A stretch of 57,054 nt of DNA, taken from NCBI GenBank assembly GCA_009602735.1, contig WELA01001240.1, positions 107,041 to 164,094 of the forward strand, in the 5' to 3' direction. The stretch's first letter is position 1. Each line of letters opens with the position of its first letter. Positions 22,701-57,054 of the stretch are shown in pieces. The notes under the pieces were generated by a model. That model had not been told where the DNA came from. It searched no databases and was given only the letters and a program-made list of their open reading frames with translations. A program made the translations under genes and the position numbers. The stretch comes from Mesotaenium endlicherianum (taxonomy: Eukaryota).

Positions 22701-25700
22701 CCCACCTCCTCCTCCCTCTCCCCCCCACCCCTTAGGCAACAGCACGCTCTCCCCCTGCCTCTCCCTCTCCCCCTTTCGGCTCTTGCATGCCTTCGCCCTC
22801 TCCCTCTCCCTCTCCCTCTCCCTTTTTAGGTATCCCCTTCCTTTCGTCCTTCCCCTCCCCTTGCATGCTCCCTTCCCTTGCATGCTCCCTCCCCNNNNNN
22901 NNNNNNNNNNNNNNNNNNNNNNNNNNNNNNNNNNNNNNNNNNNNNNNNNNNNNNNNNNNNNNNNNNNNNNNNNNNNNNNNNNNNNNNNNNNNNNNNNNNN
23001 NNNNNNNNNNNNNNNNNNNNNNNNNNNNNNNNNNNNNNNNNNNNNNNNNNNNNNNNNNNNNNNNNNNNNNNNNNNNNNNNNNNNNNNNNNNNNNNNNNNN
23101 NNNNNNNNNNNNNNNNNNNNNNNNNNNNNNNNNNNNNNNNNNNNNNNNNNNNNNNNNNNNNNNNNNNNNNNNNNNNNNNNNNNNNNNNNNNNNNNNNNNN
23201 NNNNNNNNNNNNNNNNNNNNNNNNNNNNNNNNNNNNNNNNNNNNNNNNNNNNNNNNNNNNNNNNNNNNNNNNNNNNNNNNNNNNNNNNNNNNNNNNNNNN
23301 NNNNNNNNNNNNNNNNNNNNNNNNNNNNNNNNNNNNNNNNNNNNNNNNNNNNNNNNNNNNNNNNNNNNNNNNNNNNNNNNNNNNNNNNNNNNNNNNNNNN
23401 NNNNNNNNNNNNNNNNNNNNNNNNNNNNNNNNNNNNNNNNNNNNNNNNNNNNNNNNNNNNNNNNNNNNNNNNNNNNNNNNNNNNNNNNNNNNNNNNNNNN
23501 NNNNNNNNNNNNNNNNNNNNNNNNNNNNNNNNNNNNNNNNNNNNNNNNNNNNNNNNNNNNNNNNNNNNNNNNNNNNNNNNNNNNNNNNNNNNNNNNNNNN
23601 NNNNNNNNNNNNNNNNNNNNNNNNNNNNNNNNNNNNNNNNNNNNNNNNNNNNNNNNNNNNNNNNNNNNNNNNNNNNNNNNNNNNNNNNNNNNNNNCGCCG
23701 GCGACGTTGGCGGCCGCCAGCTGGCGCAGGCGCGCGCGCTCCTTGCGCACCAGCTTCTTGTCCTTCTCGCGCTGCTTGCGCTGCGCCGCCGCCGCCTCCG
23801 CCGCGCGCTTGTCCGCCTCCTCCTTGCGCACGCGCTCCTCCTCCGCCGCGCGCTTGCCCTCCTCCTCCGCGTCGCGCTTGGCCCGCTGCTTCTCCTCCTT
23901 CTTGCGCACCTTCTCGCGCTTCTCCTCCTCCTTGCGCCGCGCGATGCGCGGGTCGCGCCGCCACGCGTTCTCCACCAGCAGCCGGATGCGTGCGTTCTCC
24001 TCCTTCTTCGCCTGCCGGGCCGCTCCGCACGCACACACGCACACGCACACGCACGCGACCCACGCACAGGCACAGGCACACGCAGATGCAGAAGCAGACG
24101 CACGACGAGTTCAGATTTGCCTCCCACGTCGGCTCGCTTGGTCGCTCTTTGCCTGACTAATTGCCACCGCACCCTTACATGCCAACACAGTTGTAAACAC
24201 ACTCCATACTCATACTCGTGGCCTCAACGTTCACGCTTACAGTCCCCTTCCGTTCGGCAAAGGAGTTGCAGCGTGCTCAATGCTCTCCACACTCCTGTCA
24301 GCCTACGTGCGACTGCACCACGGCCAAAACGCCTGAGACGCATGAAGCGCGCGGCAAACAACAAGCACACTTTGCCGTTCTCACACCAACACTGCCGCAT
24401 GGAATGAGCCGATGGATGACAGCAGGAGTAGTAGCGCGGCAAGCTCATCGGAGGCTGGCTTTCCAAGCATCCCAGAAACCTTCTCTAGGTAAAATCTGGC
24501 CGTTCGCATCGCTCTATCCCACATATAGAGAATATGATTGCGCAAGATCGTGCATCAATATATAACGAGCCGTTGGACTTTATAGAACTATGTGTTGCCC
24601 CACCATTAAAACTACTCGTGCTCACTTCACACACACACAAAAGCTTTGCTCCGCATGCGCGTTCGAGTCTCCCGACGTTACTGAAGTGAGCGACCCGGGT
24701 CCCACGTCCCCCGCGCATAGCGCACACAAGAATATTGCCCGCGCGCACAAGCGCACACAAGAGGATTGTCCGCGCGCACACCGCAGCGCACACAAGAGAG
24801 AACAGCCCCCCGCCGGCATCTGGGTCCTAGTCCCACTCTGCTCTCGAGAGCAACGACACAACGACGGCATGCACCTTCTCGCGCAGCTTGGAGTTCTGGC
24901 GCTCCATCCAGCGCTTGTGCTCGCGGCTCTCCGCGGAATCGATGTCAAACTCGTCCTCGTTGGGGAACTCGCGCCACGACTTGAAGCCCCACCAGAAGTC
25001 GTAGAATTTGTCCACCTCCTCCATGCCCGACGCGTCGTCGCCCAGCATCAGCGCCGGCTGGATCGTCGACCACCTGCCGCGCCGCTCGCGCCCCCACGAC
25101 ACGCCCACACGCATGCACGCACGCACGCCGCCGCGTCAGTGCAAGTGCCAACGCTAGCTCCAGCGCCAGCCCCAGCCCCGGCACGAGCATAAGCATCGCT
25201 GACAGTGTGCATGCGTGCATGCGCTCGAGCTGTCACAACAGAGACCATCCCGAGGGGCCTGCGCTTGACCGGCCAAAGTGGCTCACGCACAGGCACACAA
25301 TTCATGCACACGCATGCGCATGTCCCCAAGCAGGCCCACGCGTGCCCCTCCCCTTCTTTGAGTGGCATGGCCGACGAGTGTAGCATGCAATCACGAGAAC
25401 GAAACGTTGTCTTCCAACGGGCGGCTGGTTCGCCGACTCCGACAAGAGGGCTACCGGACACCGACACAGCGGGGGCCACGTGGCAATGGCGACGGCAACA
25501 TTTGCGTCGCAGAAACGCCCGGACGGAACGGAGCCGGACGGGGCAGGACGGGGCAGGGACGCACCTCCCGTTGCGCATGAAGACGGGGCCAAAGACCTTG
25601 AAGAAGTCCTCGGGCGCGCAATCGCCGCCCGGCACCTCGTCGTCGAACTCGTCCGTGGAGTCGTAGTTGCGGCGCTTGACGGGGTCCGTGAGCACCTCGT

Positions 25701-28546: not shown

Positions 28547-31228
28547 GGTATCCTATAGCCCCGGATCACATCTGTAGGGTTTCAGTTTAGTCGTGTAGCT
28601 CCGTATGCTACTACAAATAACAGTCTCTAGACTTGCTAAGAGATGCAGGCAACCTCAGACGGGTATACTTGGATGTTACACGAGCAGGTTCGATTGTCTT
28701 ACTGTCTTGAGTATGGGAAGTACAACCTATACAATGGCTCTCACTTAGTCAACAACAGCCTTTGTTCTTGGTCTACGGTGTTGGCAGTATCTCCCCCCAC
28801 AATACAATCTACTGCTTATAAGACGCAGGCACTTCCTTGGAGGACGTCAAATGGCTATCACTTGCCTCTTTCACAGTTGCACAAGATGCAGATCACTTCA
28901 GAAATCTAGGCGATAATTTGAAGAATCGCTAAGCAACCCCTTCTTACAATGCAGAGCAGAAATACTTCTTGAAATTCAGCTTGCAGGATCAAGGAAGATC
29001 AACTACGAATGAAGTCCGACGTACACTTTAACCAGAAAAAGAGCAAGCAGAAACTACTGCAATGCAGATAGAAAGATTATTGAGAGGAAATCGTATTCGT
29101 CTTTGACGAAAAAAGAGATCGAACTAGACGGCGTATGTTCTGCGGGAAGAAGCAGCACCCTACACGCCCCTCTGATCTCTGAAGGCTGAAGGCTGCTGTG
29201 AGGTTCACCAAGCTAATCTGAAAGGCAAATGGAGGAATCAAAATTCTCGAACTTCAGGCGCCTTTCCTTTTTTCTCCTCGCCAATCGCCAGCAGCGGCGC
29301 GTGTAAAGTGATGACAGCGGCCACCTCCAGGAAAAAGTTGAGCTAGCTGCAGGCGCCTCTGCCCACCTCTGCCCCCACCTCTGCCCCACCAATTCCAGAG
29401 GAGAGTCCCTGCCTCAAGGAGCCGCAAATACTCCGCCCCACCTCGCCCCGCTCCGACCCACTCCCCCCCTTCAAATCGCGATACCTCCGTACAGACTATA
29501 CGACCTCGACTAGAAGGAATCTTGCCGGGCTTCAGTACCAAGAGCGCTGTTGTGACGTGCTGTCGGACATGATCCAACCTCGACCCAACTCGACGCGCAC
29601 GTACTCTGACTCTATCGGCCACTATCGGCTATTATTATGCAAATTCGTCATAGTTTACATCAAATTATTCGAGGCACTCTGTCGGGCTCAAACATGACCT
29701 AAGCACGTGTTAGAAGAAGAGTCCTACCGCCCGTTTAAAATAGTAACCCTACCGCAATGGCTGGCGGCAGGTTGTAACTGATGGGAGTCTGGTACATGGG
29801 GGGAATTTGGCGCTATTTAACCGGATGTCCATATTCTGGTCACTACATAATTTTCCAGACTTCGATTTCAGGTCGTCACTCATTCATATGTTTGCTTCAT
29901 AGTAGCATTCTAGTTTCTAAACATTAATGTGTGCTTCTATATTATGGTCGTTCGTTTAACTTTAAAGTCACTAATTTTCCCGGGAGTAATCCTGAAAGCG
30001 TAAGCCCCCCATGGTCTGGTAGCAGTAGGTATTGATGAGTGCGAGTTGATACCTTGCTTTGACTTATCTACTTGCTTTCCAGCGTAGATATGACCAGCAA
30101 AGCTTTCAGAAGAAATGCGAAGGTTGAGATTGGTTGGGATAGGTTGAGACGGCCCAGCATAGAATACGCCATCGAAGGTCCGGAAATTGAAGTACAAAAT
30201 GGAAAGGGTGTGCACGGTCATAGTTATTACAACGGCACCTAAAATTACCGGAAAATAGGTGTCCAAGTCCGTTCCAGGGAGCACCAGGGAGCAATGCAAC
30301 GCAAATTTGTGCCTGCTGTTGATTTTTGCATATGAATGATGATTTCGAAATTTGCATCATTTCACATGAACTGTGATCACTCTGATTGGGACTTTGTTTC
30401 TGACGCTTCTACCGACTACAGACAGAGTTGGCCAGAGTGAGATAGACCACGTAGCACGTCGACAGCTAAGAATCTCTAATGCCGCCAAGTGGAGGCCAGT
30501 CTAAGCTCCCTGACCGTGAGAGGGCGGGACCTGCAAAGCTGCTCCAGTGTAAGAGAGGGTAAGAGAGCCATGATCGTGAAAGCGAGCGCTAGTTTCAAAT
30601 TCGGATTGCGCAATGCGGCAACTGATGAAGCGAGCACCTTAGTTAGCTAGCCTTGCAGTGAACGAGCAGGAACTATAACACATTCATAGCCGATGACCAG
30701 ATCTCTTATGCAGATATCCCCATGCAGCAGCAGTCGTACAATCAAGACAGCTGGATTGGTAGTTAAGAAAATTTCGAATAACTGCATATGGTTCTAATAT
30801 GACCTGAAACTTTGAGTACGTTCATTGAGGTATCCGCCATTTGGTGTAGGCCTGACGAGTAACTAGGTCATCATATTGATTGTTATTGGAATATCAGCTG
30901 CTTGACGTAATCCCCTCGAACTGAATATTCTATGGGTCCAGTTACTGTGAATAGCCAGATGGCCCCAATTGTGTACTATGCTTACTTTTTCACTAGAGGC
31001 TTCAAGCGTAGCGATCAAGCTGGCAGGTGATTAAATTAGAAAGGCTTATTAGGCCACAGAGGGATTGACGAGGGATTGAAGAGGGAGTCCATTGTAAGCT
31101 CGTCTGTCAAAACTGGCAGTACTGAGTAGGCACCCATGACAGCAACCCCTTCGCGTGCTACATTGCTACGTTGAAAAATCGAGGTCTTTTGTGTGACCTG
31201 GCACATTCAGTAGTGACTAACAACTCAG

Positions 31229-39952
<8,724 letters not shown>

Positions 39953-41661
39953 AGCCCAAAGTTGAAGGCCTAACCCCTAGGCTCAAAACCTTCGGCTAAA
40001 AAGTCATAATTTCTACCAAATGGCAAGGAGCCAAATTTTGTCAGCATGTAAAGTTTAAGGTTCAGTTGAGTATTTATGTCGTCAGACATTCTCTGGAGGT
40101 ATTTGCCCTTTGTCTCGCAAGTCACCACCTACGCTCTCCTAAATCTAGGTAGGAATGCCAAATGGCTAGCTATAGCAAAAGAGAAATAGTATTTATTCCA
40201 ATCGTATTCTCAGAAAATGTTGCAACCTGCCCGCGAGGTTCGTCACGTGGTCCTTGAACTCTCTCATTGTCAGGTCCAAGTGAAAGTGATCACATCTAGT
40301 AGCTCTTCACAGACGTGGATTTGGAAGTGCATGCACTTAGATGTGGAGGTCCTTTTGCTTTTCAATCCCTTGTCCTCAGACCCCGAACCCGTAGACTAAG
40401 AGTCTAAGACCGCTCCGATTCTCCACGGTAAAAGGCTTCTTAACTTGTCAAGTGGGTCGCATAGTTGATGCCTTGGCGAGGAGTTAGATGTACGACTCCC
40501 TAGATGAGGAATTCAAGAAGTCGATACTCTAGACTTTTGAAGGATGAAACTCTCGCCTTGGCCTTAGAAGTAGCCTACTTGGAACTTGCACCCTATGGTG
40601 GCACCGTGGCACCCTCGTGCATTTCTTGATCACCGGGACAAGTCTTTTGCTAGATCAAACAACCTCGACCTATTTGCTTGATTGTGAGTTCATTACACAA
40701 TCATGACTTGTAGAATATGCAATTTTTGTGTGTTGAAGGCGTCAAATTAGTATGGTAGTGCTGCGATACTTTACGCTTTGACATAATTGATGCCAACATA
40801 AGTATGGAGTATGCACTACACGCAACGTTCCAATCTGCACCATGTGGGTGCATCATAAAAGCAATTTAGAAAAACACACATACATAGAAGACCGTTGAGC
40901 TTTTAGGGTTTTCGACTCCATCAATGGTCTTGAACGACAATAATGTTTCTCAGTAGGTAGGTTGAAGGGTGGGAGCTCGGAACTTGTCAAGGGGGTACGC
41001 TTTCAAGTCCTTTCAAGGCTCCACATGCGCATGCAAGCATTTTTAAGCTCTAGTCTTGGTACCTCATACGCACTCGGCACCAAGCCTTAACAAATTAAGA
41101 CTCTCAAGTTTACAAGCACGCACTAAGAATTTGCAACACAAACTTAAATACGCTTACTTTCAGGTACAATGATAGGCTTACATGGCGACCCCCGTCACCA
41201 AACTTATTGTACGCAAAGCTTCGCACTCCATTGCTCGCTCGACAATTTCAACTCAACTAAGGCTTGCACCGATAATTAGCACCAATGTCACAAATAGCAC
41301 TAATGCCACAAGAAGCAACTTGGTGTGCTAAGTGGCTGCGACTTTTCAAAAGCTTTGATTGGAAGTCGTGCACAAAGGTGTCGTGCCTAGTCGTGTCGGA
41401 GCACGTGTGCCATCGACCATGTTGATGTGTCGGCGATCCTTCGCTCATGTGTGCTTTGCCTGGTCCACTAGTCGGTGCATCCCTGCACGTGGGGAATCAA
41501 CCTGGTAGATCGACCTCCGCGCATTTTTGGTCTGCCTGCACTCATGCTGCAAGTGAGTGAAGCCAGCATTTAGTGTTCTCACTTCAAGCTCTTCTTCTCT
41601 CACTTCCTATTTCACAATAGTATATTTGCAACAAGTTTTCTACTGCTCATTTTCCTTTACA

Positions 41662-41673
41662 CCCCTCCCTTTC
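41662..41673 (-). other. Polypurine tract of the outer element, followed by the TG start of the presumed 3' LTR at 41661
   Basis: The minus strand reads GAAAGGGAGGGG|TGTAAAGG, ~65 nt after the PHD stop codon. Confidence 0.7.
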
Positions 41674-41738
41674 ACCTGAGACGTCCCCGTCTCTTAGCTA
41701 TAAGTTGTTTTTTGTTTATCAACCTTTCAATTAGAAGG

Positions 41739-41881
41739 TTAAGGAAAGCAGTGAAGGCACTCCCATTGCCCTGCCATAATCTCTTCTTCACCAAGGCAGA
41801 AAGTGTGCCATTGGGCACCACACTTTTTGCAGGTCACCATTGCCTCTTGATCATCCAGCACTTTGCACCTGGCACAAGGTG
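41739..41881 (-). pseudogene. PHD finger (C4HC3) at the C-terminus of the outer element's integrase
   Basis: Manual translation: PCARCKVLDDQEAMVTCKKCGAQWHTFCLGEEEIMAGQWECLHCFP*. All eight Zn ligands are present, plus the conserved W before the last Cys pair. Confidence 0.9.
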
Positions 41882-42235
41882 CCTAGCTATGGAATACCTA
41901 TTTGGAGAACACGTAAAACGAATACGTATTGCAAAAATAGGTGTAAAAAATGGCAATACGTGTGAGATACATTCTTCCAAGATTCTCGCAAAAATCGACA
42001 GGGCTTATAACTTCCAAATTGCTTAGAAACTTCGAGCGCAATTGGTTGCAAATGGTAGAGGACTCACTTTGCTGTGATATGAAGGTGGTGAAAGTAAAAA
42101 ATCATTGTTACATTTTCAAACCGCCGAAGATTCATTTTTACTTCGTCAAGACGCGTATTTTGAGTATTTTGAAAATGTCGAAATACGTGGTGGAATACGT
42201 CGCTCACGGACCGATACGAGTATTCCATAAATAGG
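41882..42235. mobile_element. 354-bp non-autonomous TIR DNA transposon (MITE) with an 8-bp TSD
   Basis: TSD ACAAGGTG at 41874-41881 and 42236-42243. Left end CCTAGCTATGGAATAC; reverse complement of the right end CCTATTTATGGAATAC (14/16). Removing it restores the frame KLVPATPCARCK. Confidence 0.9.
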
Positions 42236-43449
42236 ACAAGGTGTAGCTGGCACCAATTTCTTGGGCTCAACCCTAATAGTAGGATCAATTTTTCGCAGAT
42301 GGCAAAGCAAACAATTCTGCACATGACCTCTCATGGTTTTTCCATTTGAGCCTTCCAGCTCTAGCACACTCTTTCCAAATGCATGTTTCACACGCAAGAT
42401 CACTGCAAGTGAACTGGTGTCGATGATGGTCTTGGTCTAGCAATTCCTGTAGACGAAATCTCTTTTTGGATCTGCGTCATCTGTAGCCAATAACCCCCAG
42501 CCCGTGTCTTTGCGTAGCATTGGTTATCTCGCTTCTAAGCAATCTTCAAGTTGTCCAAAGCAGCTGGCATCGTGCGTTCAAACAATGCCTTTCAACGTAC
42601 CATGACTTTTACCAGCTCTTCTAGGCTGTCCGGGTTACTCACCTGCTCAATTTCCATCTTGATGCTGCTTGGCACCACAGGATTTCTTCCAAACAATATC
42701 TCATATGGTGAGTAATTCGCCAAGGCAGCCTGCTTGATGAACCTGTAATCCATTACCAGCCATGGCAGGGCCAGATCCCAGTCTCGCTTATCATGTTCCA
42801 GACGGTACTTTCGTAATGCCAACTTGATGGTTTGCACCATCCTTTCTGCTTGACCATTTGCTTGTGGATGGTCTCTGGATGTAGTCCGATCATCAATGAA
42901 GCATTTATCCAAGAGCTTTTGGAAAGACCTTTGGGACTGAGACCCTGGTCTGTCAGCACTTCTGCTGGAGCTCCATGACGCATAATCACATTGTTGAGAA
43001 GCGCTTCCGCGGTTCCCATACTCTCTTTAGCAATTAAAGGGACAACCTCTATCCACTTAGAGAAATGCTCAATCATGACCATAATATATTTATTTTTTCG
43101 CTTTGACAACGGTAGCTCACCAACGAGGTCGCACCTTTAGCGGTAGCCTAGGCCCATGATCGGCAGAGGTTGCAAGTGCAGGTGTTGTTAGTTGAAACCA
43201 GCCTTGACGCAATATCATCTTTGGCAGGTTTTGACCACATCTTTGCACTGCTGCTTTATGCCGCTCCACCAGAAAGACAACTCCAAAAGTTAATGTTATT
43301 TGGGCACCATAGTGTCCAGTGTTCTCGTGCATATCTTGCACCAGAGCTCGTCTCTTGATAGGTTTTGACATTAACTTTTCTTGGCCATTCTTTTCAATTT
43401 TGAAGGGGTTATTGCGTTTCCAGCAAAACCTTTTGGCTCGATGACTCAC
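42236..43449 (-). pseudogene. Integrase of the outer element (frameshifted)
   Basis: DMHENTGHYG; KYIMVMIEHFSKWIEVVPL...RHGAPAEVLTDQG; TTSRDHPQANGQAERMVQTIK...WDLALPW...SPYEILFGR; tail LELEGSNGKTMRGHVQNCLLCHLRKIDP. Confidence 0.9.
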
Positions 43450-43469
43450 CTAGTCTCTCTCTTTTGGAG

Positions 43470-44350
43470 ATAATAGTTTTACTATAATCCTTCACAAACT
43501 TACAATAGTTCCGCTTAGGCCCAATAGAACTCTCAGCTTAGACGCATTCGCAGGTGCAGGATTCTTCTAAATGGCCTCAATCTTTACAATCTGAGGGGAC
43601 ATAGCGTTGTTCTCAATCTCGTGACTTAAAAAAGGCACATGTGCCTCAAAGAACCTGCACTTTCCAAGATGCAGCGTCATCTAGAATTTCTTTAAGCGCA
43701 AAAACACTTGTTCCAAGTGCTCAAGGTGCTGTACGAGTGACTTACTAAACACCACAACATCATCAAGATATGGTTTTGTAAAAACCAGGCCCTCCAGCAC
43801 CTTATCCATAGTTCTTTGGAACATGGCAGGGGAATTTTTCAGCCTGAAGGGCATCACTGTCCATTGCCATATCTCTGTTTGAGCCCAGAAAGCGACCTTA
43901 CCTTGATCTTCTGTTTTTGTAGGAATCTGGTTGAAGCCTTGCCGCAGATCAATGATGCTGAACAACTTTCCGGTGGTGGCAATTGAGAAGAACCACTCTG
44001 GCATGAGCATAACATAGCTATCTAGCTCTGTGGAATTTAGTCGCCTGTAGTCACCACACATGCGGGTGGCACTGTAAGTGCCAGCCTCGTCTTCCTTTTC
44101 TACTACTATTGTGAAAGCTCCATGTACTAAGGTTTATTTTTCAATCATGCCAAGATTGTGTAGCTCTTGGCAGGTCTTCTCCACACAGTTCCACTCTGTT
44201 GGGCTGAGCTAATGCGGCCCAACATAATTGTCAGTGTTTAGTGTGACTTCACATGCAATTCACTGCCAATTTCCTCCTTTGTAAAGGCAAACACCTTTTG
44301 GTGCTTCTTTAGCAGCCTTTCTACTTGTGCCTTTTGCTGGGCAGAGGCCA
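43470..44350 (-). pseudogene. Reverse transcriptase of the outer element
   Basis: MCGDYRRLN, FSIIDLRQGFNQI, WTVMPFRLKNSPAMFQRTMD, YLDDVVVFS, GKCRFF, LLGLS..YCKFVKDYS. Confidence 0.92.
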
Positions 44351-46519
44351 TTTTTGCAATGGTGAACATCTATGTTTCAGGCTACTTCTCTCCACCAAAA
44401 ACATCTAGTAATTGCTATTTCTTTGGTTTGGGTCGAGGATGTTCACCCCCATCTTCTCCCTCTAGCTTTTCAGCCTGATTGCTTGGTGGTGGAGTAACAA
44501 GCTTTACAGCCTGGTCCTCCTAGGGTTTAGGCTCTTCAACTTTTCTCTTCAGAGGCAGGTTTCTACCTGAAGGTCGGTGTTTCTCCCTTCCTGTCAGGTG
44601 CTTCAATCGCCTCTTAACGGGTTGCCAGAGCCATCTCCGCTCATCTTCAGCCGTCCAGCTAAAGCCTGTTTCGCCTTCTTTGAGTTTGGGGCACACTACG
44701 ATTGGCCACCCAGCTGCGTCCACATTAGCAGGTCTGGGGCCCACTGTCTATCCCCACTACTGCTGGATATTTGTCAGACGTGCTGCTGTTGTTCCACGGG
44801 ATTCTCCCAATGGCGGCATAAACGTCCAGACTCAAGTGGCGTATTGTAGCTGCTGCACTTATGCAAGTCAGTTGCACACGGCGCTCTCCTTGGTAAGGAG
44901 TTGTACCGTCCTTCTCAAGGTGTTGAGTTCTTGTTTCATGACTTATGTCGCTCCAAGTGTTGGCTCAGCCCTTCCCCTCTTTTGAGAACTGGAAGGCTAA
45001 ACATAGGAATGCAAATATTCATCTCAACAGCTTTGCGCAACACGCCTCCTTCTCCCTCCTTTCCAAGATATCTTGGATAATCTTGGGTGGAGGGCCGGTG
45101 GCTCCTTTCGGAACACCCTCTATGTGCGCTTCACCTCTGTATTTCACATTGCGCTCAAATGTACGTCGACAGGTAGCATCCCTTCTTGGGCCACCTTTCT
45201 TGGCTTCTTTACAAAAGCCCCTGGTCTCTCTTGCACTGGCTCCTTCTTGGCAGTGCAACGTGCTAGTTCTGGTGGTCGTTGCAGCTGGTCGTTGGTAACG
45301 CGCTCCAAAGCAGCACTGGCAGCAGTAGGCAATCTTAGCTCCTTGTATAGATCTTTAGGATGGGGCCCCTCCACTGTCAAGCTGTCAATTAGCCATTTGC
45401 CTACTCGCAAAACCAACGCAGAGGGGTTAAGACAAGGAAAGTCAAAACGTGCATGGGAGATCATTCTCAATCTCCTTTGTGTCTGCCAGCTCTGGCAATT
45501 CCATTTCTGGAAGGTCAGGCACCTCCGCCTCTGACGCTGTTGGTTTCTCCACTTCTGGCAGTGGCGGCTTGTCTTCTTCCTCCTGTTGATAGTCATCATG
45601 TTAGTGATGACCGCTTGCAGAGACTGCACGGCTTGCGTCATCTTCTCCTCGCAACGTTTTGCCGAGTCTGTCTCCATAAGCTAGTCCATCATCTGCCTGG
45701 TGATTTTTCCAGCCATCAAGCAAACGGCACCCAGCTAGCACTCCTCCTTGGTTGGTGTTTGACCAGATGTGTGGAATGTCTCGGCCAATTTCTTGACCAA
45801 CTCCACTTTATAGTCCTCCATGGATTCTTCCAAGCAGATAGTCTGCCTAGGCTTCTCTGCTGAGGAAGAGTCAGATTTTGCTGAATCCTGGCTGTTGGCT
45901 TTAGCCCATTTGCCAATGTTGCACTTGCGCTCCTTGGGGCCTCCTCAAGGCTTTCCCAACCTGGGGTCCCATTTGACCATTCTGGCGATGGCGGAGCGTA
46001 GCGTGGGTTTGTTTCCCAACTGTTGGTGTCAACTTCTAGCGTTCGCGTCCAATTCCTGTGCCCAATCTCCACTTCCGTAGAGTCTGACTCAGAGGTGGTA
46101 TTATGTCATGGATTCTCCCTTTCTAAAGGTATGTCTCTGACTGGTAGGTCTTCTCTCACAGGCGGTATTGGCTGCCCTTTCAGACGTCTCTTTTCCCCTA
46201 GTGGTCTCTCTTTTCAGGGGTAGTGTGGACCTTCAATCCAGGCTCATTTTTCCGCACCAATGTGATTTCCCTTTCCAAAGACTTCTCATGCTCCTGCTTC
46301 TGCAAAGGTTCTCTCTGTCATGCCCACCTCCATATATGGAGTGCTTGTGCCCCTGACTTCACTGGACGCATTTTTGCACGTGGAGATCACCTCCAAACGT
46401 CTGCGCAATCTTCTTTCTGGCCTCTAGTCTGAAGTGTACACAGCTACTTCCAACACGCGGATAGCTAATGGTGCTGGTATAGGTCCCTCGTGGAAACTCA
46501 GTTGCTGCCAAGTAAGTAT

Positions 46520-47072
46520 AATCTTCACCAACCCCGTCGTGGTGTGTTTTCCAATCATATTGCCATGGGCCTTGGCAATTGCCTTTTCTCCCATTGCGTC
46601 GACTAGTTGACGAGATATATTGTCTGGTATTTCCAAACATCTCCCTTTCTCCAGATAATTTGGCTCTCGCCAGACAAAATTCTCATTGTCATCCCTGCTC
46701 ATTCCTTGTCCTCCAACTTTGAAGGCCCTGGACTGAGGGAATGCTGTGAATGTGGGCAGAACCTCCCTTGGTTCTCCGTGTGTGTTGATCTGGTACTGGT
46801 AGTAAGGATCTTTCTTGGTCACTCCCTGGTTTGAACTCCCAACGTTTCACCCCCTGGGCGGACGTCTGGTACTCGTTGCATTGATGGCTCCATCCTTCTC
46901 AGGACATGTGGGGAATACCGTTAGTTCAAAATATTTTGGCACGTTGTGACGATCCTCCATGTCATGCATCATTGAGCAAGACGTAATGACCCAATGTTGC
47001 CTCAAAAACCAGCCATGGATATCCTGGCTGTATTTGGTTATATTTTAGGCCCGGGTGTACATTCTCCATGCA
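46520..47072 (-). pseudogene. C5-DNA methyltransferase, C-terminal half (motifs VI, VIII, variable region, IX, X)
   Basis: MENV at 47069-47058; LGHYVLLNDA*HGGSSQRAKIF*TN at ~46995-46920; EPREVLPTFTAFPQSRAF; WREPNYLEKGRCLEIPD; AIAKAHGNMIGKHTTTGLV. Confidence 0.75.
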
Positions 47073-47777
47073 TGAAATGAATCGACTTACTAAAAAGGCG
47101 ATTAATAATTAATGAAGATCTTTATATCAGCAAGTAATCTTCATGGTATTTTCTGTAAATTGATTAAACAGCAAAAGACAATACACTAGCAGTGGACAAT
47201 ACTCGTAATGGAAGAAAACTAGCATCAATAATGCAATCAGTAAACTCACACATAAGCAAGGCCAGGAGACAGTGCATACCAATGACTTCTCGCCTTGGAT
47301 TCAGATCTCTCTCAGTAAGCAGTACCAGAGAGTTGGCCTCGTTTTCAAATGCCGAACTTGAGAGCAATCCTAGCATATGAACATGGAATGAGTTTATTGT
47401 TCAACGGCCAGTGCGATGGCACCGCCTACCCGGGAGTTAACCACGTTGGTAGGACCTTGGTTAACCAAATCCACCACCATCTCCCATCATCCCGAATCGC
47501 CATCCATCCTGAGGATGTCATCTGGCCATTCATCTAGCACACCACACTTAGATGCATATCTAGGCAGTTTGTTGCTACCGAGTACGGAAGTCAGCTGGCT
47601 GTCAAAGAATGTGTCAGCAAGCTGACCTAAGATGACTTCAGCCTGCTGCCCCCGGCTGAGTCATTAAACTCATTATGTCATAAAATCCAGTAGATTCAAT
47701 ATTAACTAAAATTCAGCACGCTGAACTTATTTAAGTATTAAATTTAAATGAATATTATATCAACCAATATACTGATT
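47073..47777 (-). repeat. 3' LTR of the inner element (7 nt missing at its inner end)
   Basis: Direct repeat of 52772-53477. By eye there are roughly 45 substitutions plus a few small indels (~93% identity, approximate). Confidence 0.95.
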
Positions 47778-50700
47778 CAGTTTGTAAGCATTCTGCTGTA
47801 TCCTGCTGACATGTTCAGTTTGTAAGTATTCTGACCGACACGACGCACCACCAAATATGCACCGACCCAGACAGGATCAAGCTTTTTCTTGACCACACCA
47901 GGTAGGTACAGGTGCTGAGAATACGATTTGACCAAATCGCCCTTAGAAAATGTCAGTTTGCGACGGTGCTGATTAGTGTATTTTTGTTGGTTTGCCTGGG
48001 CTTTGTGCAGGTTCTGTTGGACTTCTGAGCCTGTCAGCAAACTCCTGGGTTAATTGGAGGGAGATCGGATTGTCAATCCCTTTAGGGTGAGTTAAAGACT
48101 CCCCTAGTATATCTGAAGGAGACTTAGGGACTCTACCCAGACTCAATTCAAAAGGAGTCTTGCCCGTTGACGGGTGCACCGCACTGTTGACCGCAAACTG
48201 GATTTGAGGTGACAGGTCATCCCAATTATCTTGCTTTTGGTTAATATAGGCTCTCAGTACCTCTTGCAAAACTCAGTTACTTCCTTCAGTCTGCCCATCA
48301 GTCTGAGGGTGGTTTGCTGTGCTGAGCAGCTGCTTGACTCCCATTAACCCCATTAAAGTTCTCCAGAACTCCGATGTAAATTTTGAGTCTATGTCTGAGA
48401 TGATAGTAGAGGGTAGCCCATGTTGGCATACTACATGGTTGTAGAACTGCCTCGCTGTTTCAAGTGCAGTTACTTTGACAGTTGTGGGGATGAAAATGAC
48501 CATTTTGTCAATTTATCCACTACTACCAGTATTGAATCATGCCCATCGGCGGTTCTTGGTAGTGTTACCACCCAGTCCATAGATATTGTTTCCCAGCGGC
48601 CAGCTGGGATGAGCAGCGTTGTAAGAGGCCCCCCGGTGGTGTGTGCCTAGACTTATTCCTTTGGCACTGGTCACAGGACTTAACGTATTTCAAGACCTCC
48701 AGAGGTAATCCCTCCCAATGATAATGTTTTGCCAGTTTGCCAACAGTTTTGGCCTGCCCCAAATGCCCACCCAGTAAACTGTCATATGCTTGACTCAGTA
48801 AACAGGACCTTATTTTCAAGTTATTAGGAATGACCAGCTACAGCCTGCCTGAAGTGGTTTCAGTCACCCAGACCCCATCCTTAAGCCTATACTCGAGTGC
48901 AGTAGCAGGACACACACCATCAGTGTAGCTGGGCTCAAATGTTGGGTCAGAAAGGTAGGCTTTCCTAAGTTGTTCAAGGAAGGACTTTTTCACCTTTAGT
49001 GAAGTGAGTGCACAAAGGACGTTATCTACAGTATGCTGACTAAAGTTCCTTTCTTGCAAGTCAGGTCTTCTAGAGAGTGCATCAGCAGGATTCAACTTCC
49101 CTGGTTTGTAGTCGATTTGGACTTGGAACTGCTCCAGCATCTGGCTCCAGCGGTTCTCCCTCCTCGACAGCTTGGACTTCTTCTGAAAGTGGGTCAGAGC
49201 TAGATGATCTGTAATCACCTTAAAAGCTTTACCATGTAAGTATGCTCTCCACTGTTTGAGTACATGAATGATAGCTAGCAGCTCTTTATCATGCACTGAG
49301 TAATTAATCTCCGCTGGATTAAATTTCATAGACTCATACAACACCGGATGCCACTCCTGCCGTACCTTACCATCCTTTGTGGTTTTGTCAGCAGGCTGCA
49401 ACAAAATAGCACCCATGGCAAAATCAGAGGCATCAGTAACCACCTGCACCGGTTTGCTGGGGTCATACACGGCTAGCACTGGGGCAGAACAAAGGGCATC
49501 CTTAAGGATTTGGAAGGCAGCCTGCTGCTCTTCCCCCCACACATACCCTATGTCTTTCTTGGTAAGGTCAGTCAATTTACTGGTCTTTGTAGATAAATTC
49601 TCAATAAATCTTCTATAGTAGTTAGCCTACCCAAGGAAAGATGTATCTTCGGAGACAAATTGTGGTATAGGCCAGTCCCTTATGGTCTGGACCTTCTTAG
49701 GATCCACACTGATGCCTTCTTTGCTGACAACATGGCCTAGAGATTCAATGCTTTCTTTGAAGAAATCACACTTGCTCATTTTAGCATACAACTGGTTCTT
49801 TCTCAGAGTGTCCATGACTGTCTTCAAGTGTTCAACATGCTGAGCTTCATCCTTAGAGAAAATTAAAATATCATCCAGGAAGACTTGCACAAACTTATCC
49901 AGGGAAGGTCTGAAATTGTCATTCATAGCATTCATGAAGGTTGCAGGAGCATTCGTCAGTCCGAATGGCATCACGTTGAACTCATAGTGTCAATAACGTG
50001 TGCGAAAGGCACTCTTGTGTTCATCCCCCTCAGCAATTTTGATTTGATGGTAACCATTCTTGAGATCTACCTTACTGAACACTTTAGCACCAGACAGGAT
50101 ATCAAGCAAGTCCTTCTGGGTAAAGCATACTTGTTCTTCAATGTAATTCTGTTAAGAGCTCTGTAATCAACGCACATCCGCATGCTCCCATCCTTTTTCT
50201 TAACAAAGAGGATGGGTGCGCCATAAGGTGATTTACTAGGGGAAATGTAACCATTTTCCTCAAGTTCTGCAATCTGTGGTTTCAACTCTTCGCTCTCCAC
50301 ATAAGACAAGCCATAAGTGCGTTGCCAGGGTGGCTGACTCCCAGGTAATAAGTCAATCCTGTGATCCACTTCCCTCATAAGAGGTAGTCCTGGAGGCATA
50401 TTTGAAACATGAGTGAGTTGAGCAACAATTTTTGCAGCAGTAGGGTGCTCCGGAGGGATTACCTTTTTTTCAACCACTTCCTCAAGTTGAGGAGGTAACT
50501 CTCTTAGCAGAAGACAGAACACTCTGTCTTCCTTCTGGTTTCAGCTGTCGATGAACTCCATTGCATTCAGCAATTTGCATCCTCCTAGAAGCCTCTTCTT
50601 TTTCTTCATTTGCCATCCATACAAGACAAGAGGAAGAGCACTGGTGGGTGCCAAGTTAGTCTGCCCATCATTGGCTCCTCTCACTTTAACTGTACCTTTG

Positions 50701-51527
50701 CTCCAACAGACTTCAGCTTGATGTCTATCAAGCCAGGACCTGCCTAGCACGAGATCATAGAAGCTTGTGTTGAGTACCTCAAATGTAAGCGATTTAGTTA
50801 GAATTGCAATGCCAGAACCTAACTGAACCTCAATAGGCTTGGTTATAATTCCTCCCAGGATGCTTGAGGCATCTCCAAGGAATATTTTTCTATTCCCTTG
50901 GGTGACAGTAGGCAGCCTTAGCCGCTTAACTAAGTCCTTGTGGATAAAAGTATGTGACGCCCCTCCGTCAACAGATGCCCTCACCTTCTTGCCTGCAATA
51001 ATGCAATGCAGTAGGATAGGAAGGGATACCTTTTCCTGACTTTTGCATTGTTCTTCTGACTTAGCAAAGAAATGTTCGACATCAGGTGGAACAAGATCAT
51101 CCAGAGTGTGCACTTTCCGGAGATCTATATTGCTGATGGTCTCCTTTATCTGGTTGTCAGGCATGCATAGTGAATCCAGTTCAGCAGGACCCATAATACC
51201 TGCTACGAGGGCAGGTAGTGACGACTCACTATCTCTAGCATCCTCACAATCAGTAGACTGGATTACTGACTGTTGCTGTCTTTTAAAGGCTGGTCTTTTC
51301 TCTCGACCTTTGGGAGGTGCTTGTCTGGACACTGCTCTCTTAGTGACCTGTCTGCTGGCAATGGAAGCAAATCGATTTTGTTGAGGCTGGTCTCGGCTTA
51401 GTCCTACCACCACCTCTTCCATAGCCGCCTCGAGAGAAACCACCTCTCCCTCTAGACTGTATAGCATTGTACTCATACCCATATTCATCACCCTGATCAT
51501 CCTCAGCCTGGTCTCCTTCAATTGCAT
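47778..51527 (-). pseudogene. pol of the inner element: protease, RT, RNase H, integrase (fragmented)
   Basis: VDGGASHTFI...[49 protein letters not shown]...[22 protein letters not shown]...DKELLAII...NPADALSRRPD; GGHLG...SCDQCQR; HGLPSTIISD..SKFTSEFW...HPQTDGQTE; DPVWVGAYLV. Confidence 0.93.
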
Positions 51528-52737
51528 TGTAGAAACCGTGGGGTTTTGACAACCTTAGACACCAAAGCATTACTTTGGCGCTTGTGATTGAATTGCTGCT
51601 GATCCCAGGCATTAGCATCCTAGATCAAGTCAACCAATATCTCATATTTTTTTTCAGCAAAATGACCTAAGACCTCAAATTTCAACCATACCTGAAGTAT
51701 GCTATCATATATTGCTCTGGCAAGTCTGGCTGCTTCATCATGTTCTCTTGGAACTTTTGAGCAAACTCAGCAACTGAAGTGGTCTGCTTCAGTGTCAGGG
51801 AGATCATCGCATAGATAGCTTTCTCCTGCTGGTTGATGACATCAAACTTCTCATGCAACTTCTCGACAAACTCTACCCACATAGGGTCACCGAGTTGCCG
51901 AGCCTTACGCTCTTCCTTCCAGTACAACCACCAGTCTGCAGCACTCCCTTTCAGTAGCGCACCGGTGTGCCTGACCTTCTCGTAATCTTGCAGTTCTGGG
52001 TAGTTCTCCAGCCACTGCTCAACATCCGCGAGAAACTTGATCAGGTAATATTTTGTGTTTCCCTCAGGATCATAGTCCTGGGGAGGTTTCGGCTTGGGCT
52101 TACTAGTCCCTTTGCCACCACCACCCGTGGTTTGAGAACCCAGTTGGTCTCGGTCTCGCAGTAGAGACATTATGATTCTTTTGTCATCCTGTTGAGATTG
52201 GTACATGCTCGCCATTTGCGATTGCATTTGCACAAACAATGCTCCCAAATCCACACTCTGAGGTGGGAGTCTAGCAAATGCAACAGCAGCATTGGCATCT
52301 ACTCGTTGAGTAGTGTCCTCAACAGTCCCTCTCGCTCCTGGAGCAGCAATTCCTACCGCATTCAGCCGGTCACGAATTTGACCTAGGGGCACATTGAGTT
52401 GTACAGCAAGAGGTGGATTCAAAATATTGGCCCTTGATGCCATTAGTTCTTTGACAGTGCGCTCGTCCGCTGGCTGTCCTTCCCTCCTTTCTGGATCTTC
52501 AACGACTTTTGCTAATCTCTCAACTTCTAATCTGGCTCTCTCCTCCTCAGCCTGCTGTGTTGCGATTGCGGCAATAGCAGCTGCCTCATCTGCAGCCTCT
52601 CTTGTTGCAGTATCTGCCACTGCTTCGGAATAGGTACGGGTTCCTGCTACATGGCTTTCAGCCTGATTTTCAACATTCTCGTTATCCTGGTTCTCCATGT
52701 CTCGGGAGTTGCTAGTTTGAGACCTCGTCTTTATCAT
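51340..52737 (-). pseudogene. gag of the inner element with zinc knuckle
   Basis: 351-aa ORF 52737-51682 (LLKGSAADWW...LKQTTSVAEFAQKF...YFRYG), then a frameshifted RGG-rich stretch and CFHCQQTGH*. Confidence 0.88.
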
Positions 52738-52758
52738 ACAAAGAAGACTGTGATAACT

Positions 52759-52770
52759 GCTCCGATACCA
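52759..52770 (-). other. Primer binding site (tRNA-iMet type)
   Basis: Minus strand TGGTATCGGAGC, 1 nt from the 5' LTR; 11/12 match to the canonical plant TGGTATCAGAGC. Confidence 0.9.
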
Positions 52771-52771
52771 C

Positions 52772-53484
52772 TGAAATGAATCGACTTACTAAAAAGGCGA
52801 TTAATAATTAATGAAGATCTTACATCAGCAAGTAATTTTTATGATATTTTCTGTTAATTGATTAAACAGCAAAAGACAATACACTAGCAGTGGACAATAC
52901 TTGTATGTCAAATGGAAGTAAACTAGCATCAATAATGCAATCAGAAAACTCACACATAAGCAAGGCCAGGAGACAGTGCATATCAATGATTTCTCGCCTT
53001 GGATTCAGATCTCTTTCAGTGAGCGGTACCAGAGAGTTGGCCTTGTTTCCAAATGCCGAACTGGAGAGCAATCCTAGCATATGTGCATGGAATGAGTTTA
53101 CTAGTCAACGGCCAGTGCGATGGCACCGCCTACCCGGGAGTTAACCACGTTGGTAAGACCTCGGTTAACCAAATCCACCACCATCTACCATCCCAAATCG
53201 CCATCCATCCTAAGGATGTCATTTGGCCATTCAGTTAGCACACCAAACTTAGATGCATATCTAGGCAGTTCGCTGCTACCGAGTACAGAAGTCACCTGGC
53301 TGTCAAAGAATGTGTCAGCAAGCTGACCTAAGTTGACTTCAGCCTGCTGCCCCCGGCTGAGTCATTAAATTGATTATGTTATAAAATCCAGTTTTTCAAT
53401 ATTAACTAAAGTTCAGCAGGCTGAACTTAACTAAGTATTAAATTTAAATAAATATTATATCAACCAATATACTGATTTATTACA
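52772..53484 (-). repeat. 5' LTR of the inner element
   Basis: The plus strand begins TGAAATGAATCG and ends TTATTACA. It is a direct repeat of 47073-47777. Confidence 0.95.
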
Positions 53485-53865
53485 ATGCGGCACATACACA
53501 GGTGGGTCCACATGATATTTCAGTACGTGGTTGATGGTTTTCACAATCTGTTTCCGATGTGCTGCACGTGTCGTTAAATCCTCTCATCCTTCCGACCTGC
53601 GAGAATGGCTAGCATGAAAATCCAACAAAGACTCAGTCAATGTTGTAAACATTCAAAAAAGGGGATGTACCTTTACAATGTTTTATCCATAATTCGGGCA
53701 ATCTAAAAATCCGGAGGCACTAAGTCTTGGAAATTCAACATTCGTCGCATCTCGTACTGCGGTGATGTCGTTATCCACATAGATGACTTTGGCCACTTTC
53801 ATCCCTCTCTGAATTATTGCCATTGTTCTTGAGCAGAGTCTCGCAAACAACTCCAGCACAACCAT
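53485..53865 (-). pseudogene. C5-DNA methyltransferase, N-terminal half (motifs I-IV)
   Basis: VVLELFARL (motif I FxGxG-like, G>R), VIYVDND (motif II-like), and ID*VFVGFSC*PFSQVGRMRGFNDTCS at ~53640-53560 (motif IV, consensus GFPCQPFSxAG..GF.D.R). Confidence 0.8.
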
Positions 53866-54158
53866 TTCTAATCGGAACGGTTCATCCGTTTAATGGGTGC
53901 TTGTGTATGATCCGCCACGAGGCTAGATGCGGCGCATGCGACACATTGCCGAAATGCGACGGAAATGTTGGTTTGAATGTGGATAAGTACAATTGGCGCG
54001 CAATCAAAGTACCTCAAGTTACCTTTTCATTTGTATCGTCACAGCTTGAGCCAATGGCGCCAATCCTGGCATCAGGTTAAACGCAGAAGTGACTAGATGT
54101 GGTATCGGCAACAGCTCTTGCTAGCTGAAGTCCATGTTACTCATAGTTTCTTGTTGCG

Positions 54159-55085
54159 TCATCCTCCCAGGTTGCCGCAGTAATGGTCTAAACGTACATT
54201 CTTATTTAGTGAGGTGTAGACGTGAGCCTCGCTTTGCAATGCCTCATTAATTTTCCTCGGATGAGATGTTGAGGTAAAACAATGCACTAACTCAGAAGCC
54301 GTCTCGCTGTTGCATACCATCTTCACATGAATCTCTTCCGTGGATTGTCTGCCTGTCTGTTGGTAGGTCACCTTTTGCATACCTGGGGGAATCAGGTCTT
54401 TTGTCCCCAGGATAACGTCATAATTCTCTTCTTTTGTAACAGTACACTCTATCATAATTGTTGCTTTTTCAAGTTTTCCCCGAATTTACTGTGATCCAGA
54501 CAGGCTTACGAGTGAGACCGCAAGACTTAGAAACCTGTCCTGATGCAGTCCTCAATTGGAAAGGGCTTTCTTCTAGTCCCTCTTAGTCAATCCCAGAGCT
54601 TTCACATCTCTTTTTCCCACGACGATTGACTGTACTCCCGTATCCAGCAAGATATTAGATGCAGTCCAGTTGTTGAACTTCATGGCGCCATCCTTCTTCT
54701 GCACTTTCACAGTGTTGAAATTGGTTGGCAATGAGGCACAATTTGCACCCTCCTCAGCTATATCTAGTTGTTTTTTGGCTTCTTCAGCCGTGAAAGGAAA
54801 AGTGAGATTAAGATCGGCTAGCGACAGCAATTTAACATGCTGTATCCGATTTTCCACCAAAGCTCTCAGCTTCTCTTGCAAAAAGCTGACTTGCTTGCGC
54901 GTCCCTGATCTAGTCTGGCGTAGCTTAGCAATCTCGTCCTTGTCCAAGGTGATCCTAAAGGTTTGGGGAAGCTTTCCAGCATTCCTAAGGACCAAAGTCA
55001 CCAAACAGTCATGATCTGCTTGCTCTTTGGCTACTGCGGCCATTGCCTTCTCAGGTATTGCCTTTGCGCCTTTGCATACGCACAA
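54159..55085 (-). pseudogene. Retroviral-type aspartic protease region of the outer element
   Basis: NILLDTGVQSIVVG, with YDVILGTKDL downstream. Confidence 0.8.
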
Positions 55086-55140
55086 CCTTTTCTGCTACAT
55101 CTGCATTATAATACACGTTTGGAGGGTCTAGTTTTGCAAA

Positions 55141-56525
55141 CTAAGCTTTGAGTCCAGCAATTTTTGCAGTCATAGCATCATACTTATGGTTACCCTTCCG
55201 GCGACCAGAGTTATCTTTTTCCATCTTTTTACCCTTATCTGCCTCTTGCATGGCAATATTAGCCCAAGGAGGCTTCACATTTGGGTTCTTAGACCACCAC
55301 TCATCTTCTGAGTATCCCTTCTTGACATTATGTGCACGTATTTGTGTGTTGCTAGCAGACAATTGCTTATCATCAGGGTAAGGACAATCTCTCTTCTAAT
55401 GTCCTGATTTTCCACAATTCCAATAGTCTTTCTGCTGTTTCAGCAGTGTTGGCATGTTTTGCAAACTAGTTAAAGGCTTACTTCTCTTGAAAATTAGAGC
55501 TAGACGCCTTAGGTGAGGAGAATTTCTTGTTCTTCTTAGGAGCCATAAGCGGCCTGGATGCCTCTTTATACCAGACTTTACCTTCTTTGATGTTGCGTGC
55601 TATTTCAGCAGCCTCGTTGACTAGTCTCGCGCTTTGCAGACAGGTGTGGCCTGACTTCACGATTTGTTTTTTTGCCCTAGCATAACATAAATATGTCAAC
55701 CACAATCCTGGGCTCGTAGATTCTTGCTTTTATCAGCAAGATCTACTAATCAAGACTTGACTTCCATGACGGTTTAGTTCTTCTGACGAACAAAATGCAC
55801 ATAACAGTGCACTTTCAGACTGCGATCTACAGGGAGGCGTTCTTCCAGCAACTTTGAGAACTGACGCAGGCAATGGTCAAGGTCAAGTTGGTCATCCCTT
55901 GCTTCTATGACCCTTCTGCAACCGCCCAGTACTTCCGCGTGACGGGCTTCAGCGGTATCACTATTGCCGTTTTGACCACTGAATGATCCTCTGCGCGTCA
56001 GCTCTTGAGCATTCGCAACCTTTTCAGACAAGTCTGCGCACAACTTCCGCAATTTTCTCACGGATCCAGCTTCATCATCATTTTCAGCAGCGGCCCTTCG
56101 CTGGCCATCAATAAATTGTAACAGGGCATTGGTTATTTCTTGTGTTAATGCATCTATGTTTAAGCTCTCAACAAGTGCAGCAGGCACCGCTCTTTCTGAA
56201 GACAAAGCAATCTTTTGGCTTTAGCAGCCTTTCTTTGGATTTTCAAATCCCTTGCCTTCTTTTGCTTTTTGAAATTCCATTCCTGGGTAAGGTCTTCCTA
56301 CTTTCGGAATTCACGATAGAGTAGCAAGACACCCTTATCCAAGTACTGAACTAGGCTTATGAATGCAATCGACTGCGTGTATGAAGCATCCTTCCGGATC
56401 TTTTCAAAGAAATCCGCCCAACAGATCTCATCGAACTCTTTGAAAGAGAGACTATCATCGCCTGTTTGTCCACTAAAACACTTTGAAGACAACTTAGAAT
56501 TCTCATCTTTTTTGTCACTAGCCAT
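55141..56525 (-). pseudogene. gag-like region of the outer element with decayed zinc knuckle(s)
   Basis: Run of minus-strand ORF fragments from an ATG at 56525. YWNCGKSGH*KRDCP at ~55425-55381 is a CCHC knuckle with its first Cys mutated. A possible second knuckle reads KKGYSEDEWWSKNP. Confidence 0.7.
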
Positions 56526-57054
56526 CTCTGTCGTGCGTTAAGAGGTCGAGCGCATCATTGGCACAGGCTGCAATGAGGTCTATAATACATGTGGCTTTAT
56601 AACCAAAAAGGGAATCAAGCGTCAAATGTTTTAACTAAGGGGTGTGTACTCTTTAAAGTGAGCACCTCAAGATTGTAATCCGGTAGGAAAACAACTAATG
56701 AAGTCTCGTCCAAAAGATCACTGGAAGCACATCATGATCTTCAAGAGTAGTCCCATGCAAGGGTTCAAGCTGTGACTTTGCTCACCACTTGTGAAGTTCT
56801 TCAAGTGATTGGAAGCCATGAGGGCTTGCTCTTCACAAGAGGGAGACTAAGTGGTCCTGAAAACAAAAGAGATAAAAGTGTAAGCTTCTACTGATAACTT
56901 TGTGTCTTACAACTGGCATAATGGACTTTTAAAAAGATGTCTCTCTATGTAGTGATTTGAGATATTATATATTAGTATGCATATATTTTTATGTTTTCAA
57001 ATATATTTGGAGTAGTATTGTGTGGAGTCAAGTGTGAATAGGTACTCTAGTAAC

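What the first reader, a model, noticed from the sequence alone, without database searches (positions are those of the whole stretch)
46520..53865. Gypsy retrotransposon encoding a C5 DNA-cytosine methyltransferase between protease and RT, hidden by a nested insertion
Seen: joining 53865-53485 to 47072-46520 on the minus strand gives, in canonical order, motif I (VVLELFARL), IV (GFSC*PFSQVGRMRGFND), VI (ENV), VIII (QRAKIF*TN), IX (REPNYLEKGRCLEIP) and X (AHGNMI). These lie on the same strand as, and between, the element's protease and RT. Established: this is the motif order of Dcm/DNMT-type C5-MTases, and retrotransposon-borne cytosine MTases have been reported in the charophyte Klebsormidium and in Symbiodinium (de Mendoza et al. 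2018). Inference: the ancestral polyprotein released an MTase able to methylate the element's own cDNA. This may be a new host lineage or an independent family. This copy is inactive.
Basis: partly seen in the sequence, partly recalled or inferred. Interest (0 to 1): 0.88.

Follow-up and report, generated by a model that had tools for sequence, protein, structure and literature searches.

The report
Dead Gypsy retrotransposon with DNMT3 methyltransferase
This is a dead copy of a plant-lineage jumping gene that carries its own DNMT3-type DNA-methylating enzyme gene, split by a second jumping gene; the kind is already described in an alga, and the enzyme likely marks the element's own new DNA copies.

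Summary
Observation confirmed. A complete Ty3/Gypsy element (47073-53484) splits a decayed C5-methyltransferase gene. With N at the insertion, the two flanks score 99.8 bits against a family profile; controls reach 22. The outer element reads zinc knuckle, protease, methyltransferase, 2 kb spacer, RT, integrase, PHD; RNase H is deleted. The enzyme is DNMT3-like, not Dcm-like, and it is not an independent family: intact relatives share the layout, including Closterium, Marchantia and Klebsormidium proteins. It is a new, dead member of the streptophyte Gypsy-DNMT3 kind (de Mendoza 2018). The scan has noted this family before in other genomes and on other pieces of this one. New here: a sister RT lineage, named only from chlorophytes (Monoraphidium, Scenedesmus), carries the homologous domain between RNase H and integrase, and RT and methyltransferase trees both split largely by position. 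Methylation of the element's own cDNA is likely but untested; the Klebsormidium domain was inactive in yeast, and I found no CpG signature.

The parts
55381..55422 (-). Gag CCHC zinc knuckle remnant of the outer element
   Evidence: PF00098 E 0.0019; tblastn to P0003, P0031 and P0049
54402..54710 (-). Aspartic protease remnant of the outer element (3 stops)
   Evidence: PF13650 E 0.00065; tblastn to P0003 E 4e-5; stops listed
53490..53880 (-). 5' half of the DNMT3-like C5-methyltransferase (motifs I-IV), with stops and frame changes
47073..53484 (-). Nested ordinary Ty3/Gypsy element without methyltransferase; decayed
   Evidence: Ty3_capsid, protease, RT, RNase H; no methyltransferase-profile hit inside; very high summed contig depth
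52772..53484 (-). 5' LTR of the nested element, followed by a primer-binding site at 52770-52759 (tRNA-Met match recalled)
47073..47777 (-). 3' LTR of the nested element; its first bases are lost; 654 of 699 aligned bases match the 5' LTR (K2P 0.068)
46499..47072 (-). 3' half of the methyltransferase (motifs VI, VIII, IX, X)
44380..46424 (-). About 2 kb spacer between methyltransferase and RT; purine-rich, partly coding-like, no known homologue; partly shared by a second copy in the same organism
43516..44214 (-). Reverse transcriptase of the outer element (MCGDYR / DLRQGFNQI clade); RNase H is deleted just after it
   Evidence: PF00078 E 7e-22; P0042 residues 1630-1886 have no counterpart between 43516 and 43473
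42230..43473 (-). Integrase of the outer element, frameshifted
   Evidence: PF00665 E 1.7e-6
41742..41879 (-). PHD finger at the end of pol
   Evidence: PF00628 E 6.4e-6, above the curated cut-off

Best explanation
This is a dead copy of a streptophyte Gypsy-DNMT3 retrotransposon, split by a younger Gypsy insertion, whose DNMT3-like methyltransferase was likely made with Gag and protease, likely packaged into the particle, and likely methylated CpGs on the element's newly made DNA. Shown: the domain order, the DNMT3 affinity, the decay, the nested insertion, and the same layout and catalytic residues in intact relatives. Inferred: the element's protease would cut the enzyme free; the new copy would arrive already methylated, so that it looks like host DNA or is damped at once; the PHD finger on the integrase would steer insertion by histone marks. 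The identification is about 0.95 certain and the cDNA-methylation mechanism about 0.65.
For: Layout: P0003, P0035, P0042 and P0254 have protease-methyltransferase-RT in one ORF; locus L001, picked by RT alone, reads protease-methyltransferase-RT-RNase H-integrase-PHD. Of 12 RT hits with this clade's motif (among 28 hits), 5 carry methyltransferase sequence upstream in the same ORF; the other 7 start at most 160 residues before RT. Catalytic positions in 61 related domains: Cys 59, Glu 60, two Arg 57 and 57. RT and methyltransferase identities co-vary across 73 proteins (rho 0.56, 0 of 500 permutations as high). A model of relative P0138 (pLDDT 91.5) matches DNMT3B at Z 29.2 (rmsd 2.9, 282 aligned) and DNMT3A at Z 27.8, above M.MpeI 25.9, HhaI 23.1 and a Shigella enzyme 21.2. 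The window RT falls in the methyltransferase-bearing RT clade (100/99) and on the protease-side branch (89/91). In PMC5890265 two DIRS-borne Dnmt3 domains methylated CpG de novo in yeast.
Against: No activity is shown for any Gypsy-borne domain: the Klebsormidium domain gave no methylation in yeast, which the authors call inconclusive. CpG observed/expected in the outer element (0.45-0.58 in four parts, 0.92-0.93 in two short ones) is not lower than in the nested element without a methyltransferase (0.35), so there is no self-methylation signature. The window's methyltransferase is a long branch (2.0-2.2): it lay in a starred protease-side clade in one quick tree but in no starred set in a second. 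AU tests did not reject placing its RT with the other layout (p 0.29) or beside the outgroup (p 0.33). The split terminal repeats of the Klebsormidium elements were not found. RT-clade locus L002 has no methyltransferase in 2.9 kb upstream, although it also lacks a protease and matches L001 only from 250 bp before RT, so it looks truncated.
Confidence: 0.65

Rival explanations
1. Same family, different job: the enzyme acts after integration or on another substrate (insertion-site chromatin, other copies, host DNA, or the element's RNA) rather than on cDNA in the particle.
For: No CpG signature specific to the element; the Klebsormidium domain was inactive on yeast DNA; the authors list RNA methylation and self-limiting roles as options. 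The domain also occurs between RNase H and integrase in 101 of 234 methyltransferase-bearing proteins, often with a PHD finger, which would suit action at the integration site.
Against: The fold is closest to DNA-acting DNMT3, above the DNMT2 tRNA enzymes (Z 20-22). Both positions put the enzyme in a packaged polyprotein, beside the cDNA (inference).
Confidence: 0.28
2. An independent capture of a bacterial or phage Dcm/HhaI-type methyltransferase by this Gypsy lineage.
For: The motif IV piece alone is nearest to HhaI in the PDB, but at E 1.4; the window domain is a long branch with at most 29% identity to any relative.
Against: Pairwise scores of the read-through: median 38 and maximum 79 bits against 200 retroelement domains, 1-16 bits against 8 prokaryotic enzymes chosen as near hits of the family. 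The GF-x-CQ form of motif IV also occurs in 10 relatives, the Klebsormidium protein among them. The 3' piece has no match in 50,697 phage records.
Confidence: 0.03
3. An unrelated methyltransferase fragment (for example a host DNMT3 retrocopy) that happened to land between protease and RT.
For: The distance from methyltransferase to RT is about 2.3 kb here against 13-266 residues in 31 relatives, and summed contig depth is low over the spacer and the middle of the domain.
Against: The domain sits where relatives have it, 170 codons after the protease, and carries the retroelement family's own region between motifs VIII and IX. Contigs of other copies cover the bins that hold the two ends of the domain (depth 3416 at 53564-54149 and 2165 at 46425-46561, against about 70 for single-copy DNA).
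Confidence: 0.02

Closest known systems
KnitGypsy-Dnmt3 of Klebsormidium nitens, later called streptophyte Gypsy-DNMT3 (de Mendoza et al. 2018, PMC5890265: parts 1-5 of 7 read, supplements searched, main supplementary PDF and figures not available; bioRxiv 10.64898/2026.05.21.726589: passages and section 8)
   Same: Gypsy element with an intronless Dnmt3-related domain in its polyprotein; a K. nitens protein (GAQ93235.1) has Gag-protease-methyltransferase order and a similar motif IV, and groups weakly with the window domain (SH-aLRT 91, long branches). That this protein is one of the paper's elements is my inference.
   Different: Different host; dead copy; 2 kb spacer before RT; no DIRS-like split repeats found here; a PHD finger, which did not appear in the text or supplements I could search.
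SymbioDIRS-Dnmt3 of Symbiodinium (same paper)
   Same: Dnmt3 domain inside a retrotransposon Pol; the only such domain shown to methylate CpG.
   Different: DIRS element with tyrosine recombinase; an independent capture according to the paper.
EpiLTRs of Cymbomonas and Euglena (bioRxiv 10.64898/2026.05.21.726589, section 8 read)
   Same: LTR elements with a cytosine methyltransferase and a chromatin-reader domain.
   Different: Their enzyme is sister to DNMT4 and comes with an adenine methyltransferase and a chromodomain; here it is DNMT3-like, after the protease, with a PHD finger.
Animal DNMT3A/3B catalytic domain (PDB 6u8p, 4u7t)
   Same: Closest solved structures by profile and by fold.
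   Different: Host enzymes with PWWP and ADD domains; about 20-24% identity to the modelled relative.

Membership tests
C5 DNA-cytosine methyltransferases | Motifs I, IV (catalytic Cys), VI (ENV), VIII, IX, X in canonical order | tested here: met
   Read-through covers profile positions 12-339 of 347 in order; swapping the halves loses the joint score
DNMT3-like clade | Closer to DNMT3 than to DNMT1, DNMT2, DRM or bacterial enzymes | tested here: met
   Shown through relatives: profile 89 vs 50 vs 34 bits; fold Z 29.2 vs 23.1. Window read-through prefers retroelement profiles. No tree with host DNMT3 sequences could be built.
Gypsy-DNMT3 (KnitGypsy-Dnmt3 kind) | Ty3/Gypsy domain order, protease-RT-RNase H-integrase | tested here: met
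   RNase H deleted in this copy
Gypsy-DNMT3 (KnitGypsy-Dnmt3 kind) | Intronless DNMT3 domain inside the element's coding region | tested here: met
   Colinear with the profile over 1.08 kb of DNA
Gypsy-DNMT3 (KnitGypsy-Dnmt3 kind) | Methyltransferase in the same ORF as RT | tested here: inconclusive
   Decayed 2 kb spacer with stops in all frames. Relatives show both forms: 32 with methyltransferase then RT in one ORF, 35 protease-methyltransferase ORFs without RT
Gypsy-DNMT3 (KnitGypsy-Dnmt3 kind) | DIRS-like split terminal repeats | tested here: inconclusive
   No repeat between 55000-57054 and 38000-43000, or within the latter, beyond short matches; the 5' end abuts another high-copy repeat and the window end
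Gypsy-DNMT3 (KnitGypsy-Dnmt3 kind) | Groups with Klebsormidium retrotransposon DNMT3s | tested here: inconclusive
   SH-aLRT 91 with long branches in a quick tree
Gypsy-DNMT3 (KnitGypsy-Dnmt3 kind) | Purifying selection among copies; catalytic activity | not testable with these tools
   No genome held; catalytic residues conserved in relatives
Bacterial Dcm/HhaI-type | Closest relatives prokaryotic | tested here: not met
EpiLTR | DNMT4-sister enzyme with DAM and chromodomain | tested here: not met
   DNMT3-like domain after the protease and a PHD finger; no DAM or chromodomain hit in the Pfam scans of the frames read, although decay could hide one

The most novel reading that the evidence does not exclude
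Gypsy-DNMT3 is not a Klebsormidium oddity but one ancient retrotransposon lineage of all green plants. It captured DNMT3 once, kept it together with an integrase-borne PHD finger (a writer and a reader in one polyprotein), and moved the enzyme once between two slots: after the protease in streptophytes and between RNase H and integrase in chlorophytes. The many intact natural ORFs make self-methylation of retrotransposon cDNA directly testable.
Probability: 0.45. Interest if true: 0.72.

Novelty: new member of a known kind. Interest (0 to 1): 0.42.

Why it matters
A transposon that carries the enzyme its host uses to silence transposons inverts the usual arms race, and what the enzyme does is still open. 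This copy adds little by itself: it is dead and the kind is in print. Its relatives matter more. There are 184 representatives at E up to 1e-30, intact ORFs in several green lineages, and two positions for the domain. They widen the published range (streptophytes only, in the papers I found) and give better substrates than the one Klebsormidium domain that failed in yeast.

Tried and rejected
No whole genome is held, so copies could not be aligned or dated. The 3' piece alone found nothing in the word-indexed protein search, in Pfam or in the Atlas (best 0.76). The viral contigs held no relative of the RT. Expression: no RNA holder was listed; three RNA runs, read in part, gave 1, 4 and 0 reads, all under 90% alike, which is no evidence either way. 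No contig joining across the nested insertion was among the 15 joints shown of 644. The spacer matched no Pfam family in six frames and none of 261 fetched proteins above shuffled controls (27.7 vs 25.8-28.9 bits); a PHD-like hint at about 45430 was dropped. A natural stop after the methyltransferase, a lead from earlier notes, could not be decided: the frame ends at 46426, about 25 codons after the domain, and summed depth falls there (2165 to 114), but decay stops look the same. CpG and CHG depletion did not separate the outer from the nested element. The careful 104-row RT tree did not finish; the quick tree was used and a 32-row careful tree run instead. Literature: nine full-text searches found no paper on this family in chlorophytes, Closterium or Marchantia, or on the two positions; the library lacks most subscription papers, and Fig. 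4c and the main supplementary PDF of PMC5890265 could not be seen and may show domain order or a PHD finger. PMC12344493, PMC11982613, PMC10952607 and bioRxiv 2021.11.30.470311 were seen as passages only.
Full report
Observation. The six motifs lie on the minus strand in the order given. A 6.4 kb Ty3/Gypsy element (53484-47073) interrupts them just before motif VI. It has LTRs that match at 654 of 699 aligned bases, a primer-binding site and 5-bp target-site copies that differ at one base. Pfam barely sees the remnant (E 0.0046 for one of four pieces), so I looked for relatives. The outer RT retrieved P0003, an intact Gag-protease-methyltransferase-RT-RNase H protein. Its domain retrieved 69 long proteins and 184 representatives at E up to 1e-30, of which 150 were listed. 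A profile from 61 of the 69 hits the window strongly only at the two predicted places. With N at the insertion, the flanks score 99.8 bits in a frameshift-tolerant alignment; controls reach 22 (240 other stretches) and 21 (100 shuffles).

Anatomy. The outer element reads zinc knuckle (55422), protease (54710-54402), methyltransferase (53880-53490 and 47072-46499), a spacer of about 2 kb, RT (44214-43516), integrase (43473-42230) and a PHD finger (41879-41742). The copy is dead: it has stops and frame changes in every large domain, the nested insertion, and a deletion that removes RNase H. No terminal repeats were found; the 5' side runs into another high-copy repeat at the window end. Contigs from a DNA run that may be the source of this sequence show many related copies over gag, RT, integrase and the bins holding both ends of the methyltransferase, and one other copy that shares part of the spacer (summed depth is not a copy number). 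The host looks like a streptophyte: a proline-rich receptor-like kinase exon is nearest to streptophyte clusters.

What kind of enzyme. It is DNMT3-like. The family profile ranks DNMT3A (89 bits) over DRM (50) and HhaI (34). A confident model of relative P0138 matches DNMT3B and DNMT3A best (Z 29.2 and 27.8; HhaI 23.1). The window's read-through scores 80-111 bits against small retroelement profiles and 33.5 against prokaryotic enzymes. The Dcm-like look of motif IV is shared with 10 relatives, including a Klebsormidium nitens protein with Gag-protease-methyltransferase order.

Is the domain part of the element? Yes. Of 12 RT hits with this clade's signature, 5 have methyltransferase sequence upstream and 7 start too close to RT to tell. 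Of 12 loci picked by RT alone, L001 has the full layout, L002 appears truncated before RT and has no methyltransferase, L003 is too short, and the 9 distant ones have none. In a careful RT tree of 32 rows, all 23 methyltransferase-bearing RTs and the window RT form one clade against 8 others (100/99); the outgroup is small and the AU tests leave the window's exact place open.

Two layouts. Among 234 fetched proteins with the domain (near-copies included), 67 have it after the protease or before RT, 101 between RNase H and integrase, 65 alone and 1 unclear. The second layout is one RT clade (100/98), sister to the first (89/91); the methyltransferase trees split largely the same way, with a few exceptions, and identities co-vary (rho 0.56). 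The named proteins of the first layout are from Klebsormidium, Closterium and Marchantia; of the second, from Monoraphidium and Scenedesmus. Most proteins are unnamed, so the match to lineages rests on five genera.

Mechanism. Most likely the enzyme is translated with Gag and protease, packaged, cut free, and methylates CpGs on the new cDNA, while the PHD finger steers integration. Position, conserved catalytic residues and the activity of DIRS-borne Dnmt3 in yeast support this. Against it: the Klebsormidium domain was inactive in that assay, and CpG depletion here is no stronger than in the nested element. Action at the insertion site or on RNA is the main rival. Whether a natural stop follows the domain, as in 35 relatives and as earlier notes suggest, cannot be decided from this copy.

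Comparison and verdict. It works like, and very probably belongs to, the Gypsy-DNMT3 kind of de Mendoza et al. 2018. Two defining features are met, three are inconclusive and none failed. The scan has noted the family in other genomes and on other pieces of this genome; those notes gave leads only. The finding is real and well spotted, but it is a new dead member of a known kind. The two-position, green-plant-wide picture from its relatives is the part worth following. Interest 0.42.

Noticed in passing
P0078, P0113, P0261 and about 100 other fetched proteins: A sister RT lineage carries the homologous DNMT3-like domain between RNase H and integrase; named members are chlorophytes. P0078 also has a Tudor-like domain after the PHD finger (PF21743, E 4e-5).
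   Followed up: partly
window 44380-46424: Unexplained 2 kb spacer, purine-rich on the coding strand with strong codon-position bias at 45500-45799; partly shared by a second copy; no homologue found.
   Followed up: partly
window 47778-47830: The nested element's 3' LTR has lost its first bases, beside a short duplicated stretch; no purine tract is evident before it.
   Followed up: partly
window 56494-57054: Another very high-copy repeat abuts the outer element's gag end (summed depth about 250,000).
   Followed up: no
window 33461-38374 (+): Intron-containing receptor-like kinase with a proline-rich N-terminus (PERK-like by recall); a similar proline-rich ORF with a transmembrane-like stretch lies at 31217-32611.
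   Followed up: partly
window 20385-28552 (-): Exons of what looks like a DnaJ/zuotin-related gene with a Myb-like end (recalled from the translations; the pieces scanned had no Pfam hit).
   Followed up: partly
P0119, P0246, P0228, P0249, P0079, P0163: In these relatives the Gag-protease-methyltransferase ORF ends within 0-4 residues of the domain, which suggests a conserved stop in that branch.
   Followed up: partly
window 2149-2695: Tandem array of a 23-bp unit.
   Followed up: no
window 38733-39282: ORF-like GC-richer stretch between the kinase gene and the element's 3' flank; not identified.
   Followed up: no
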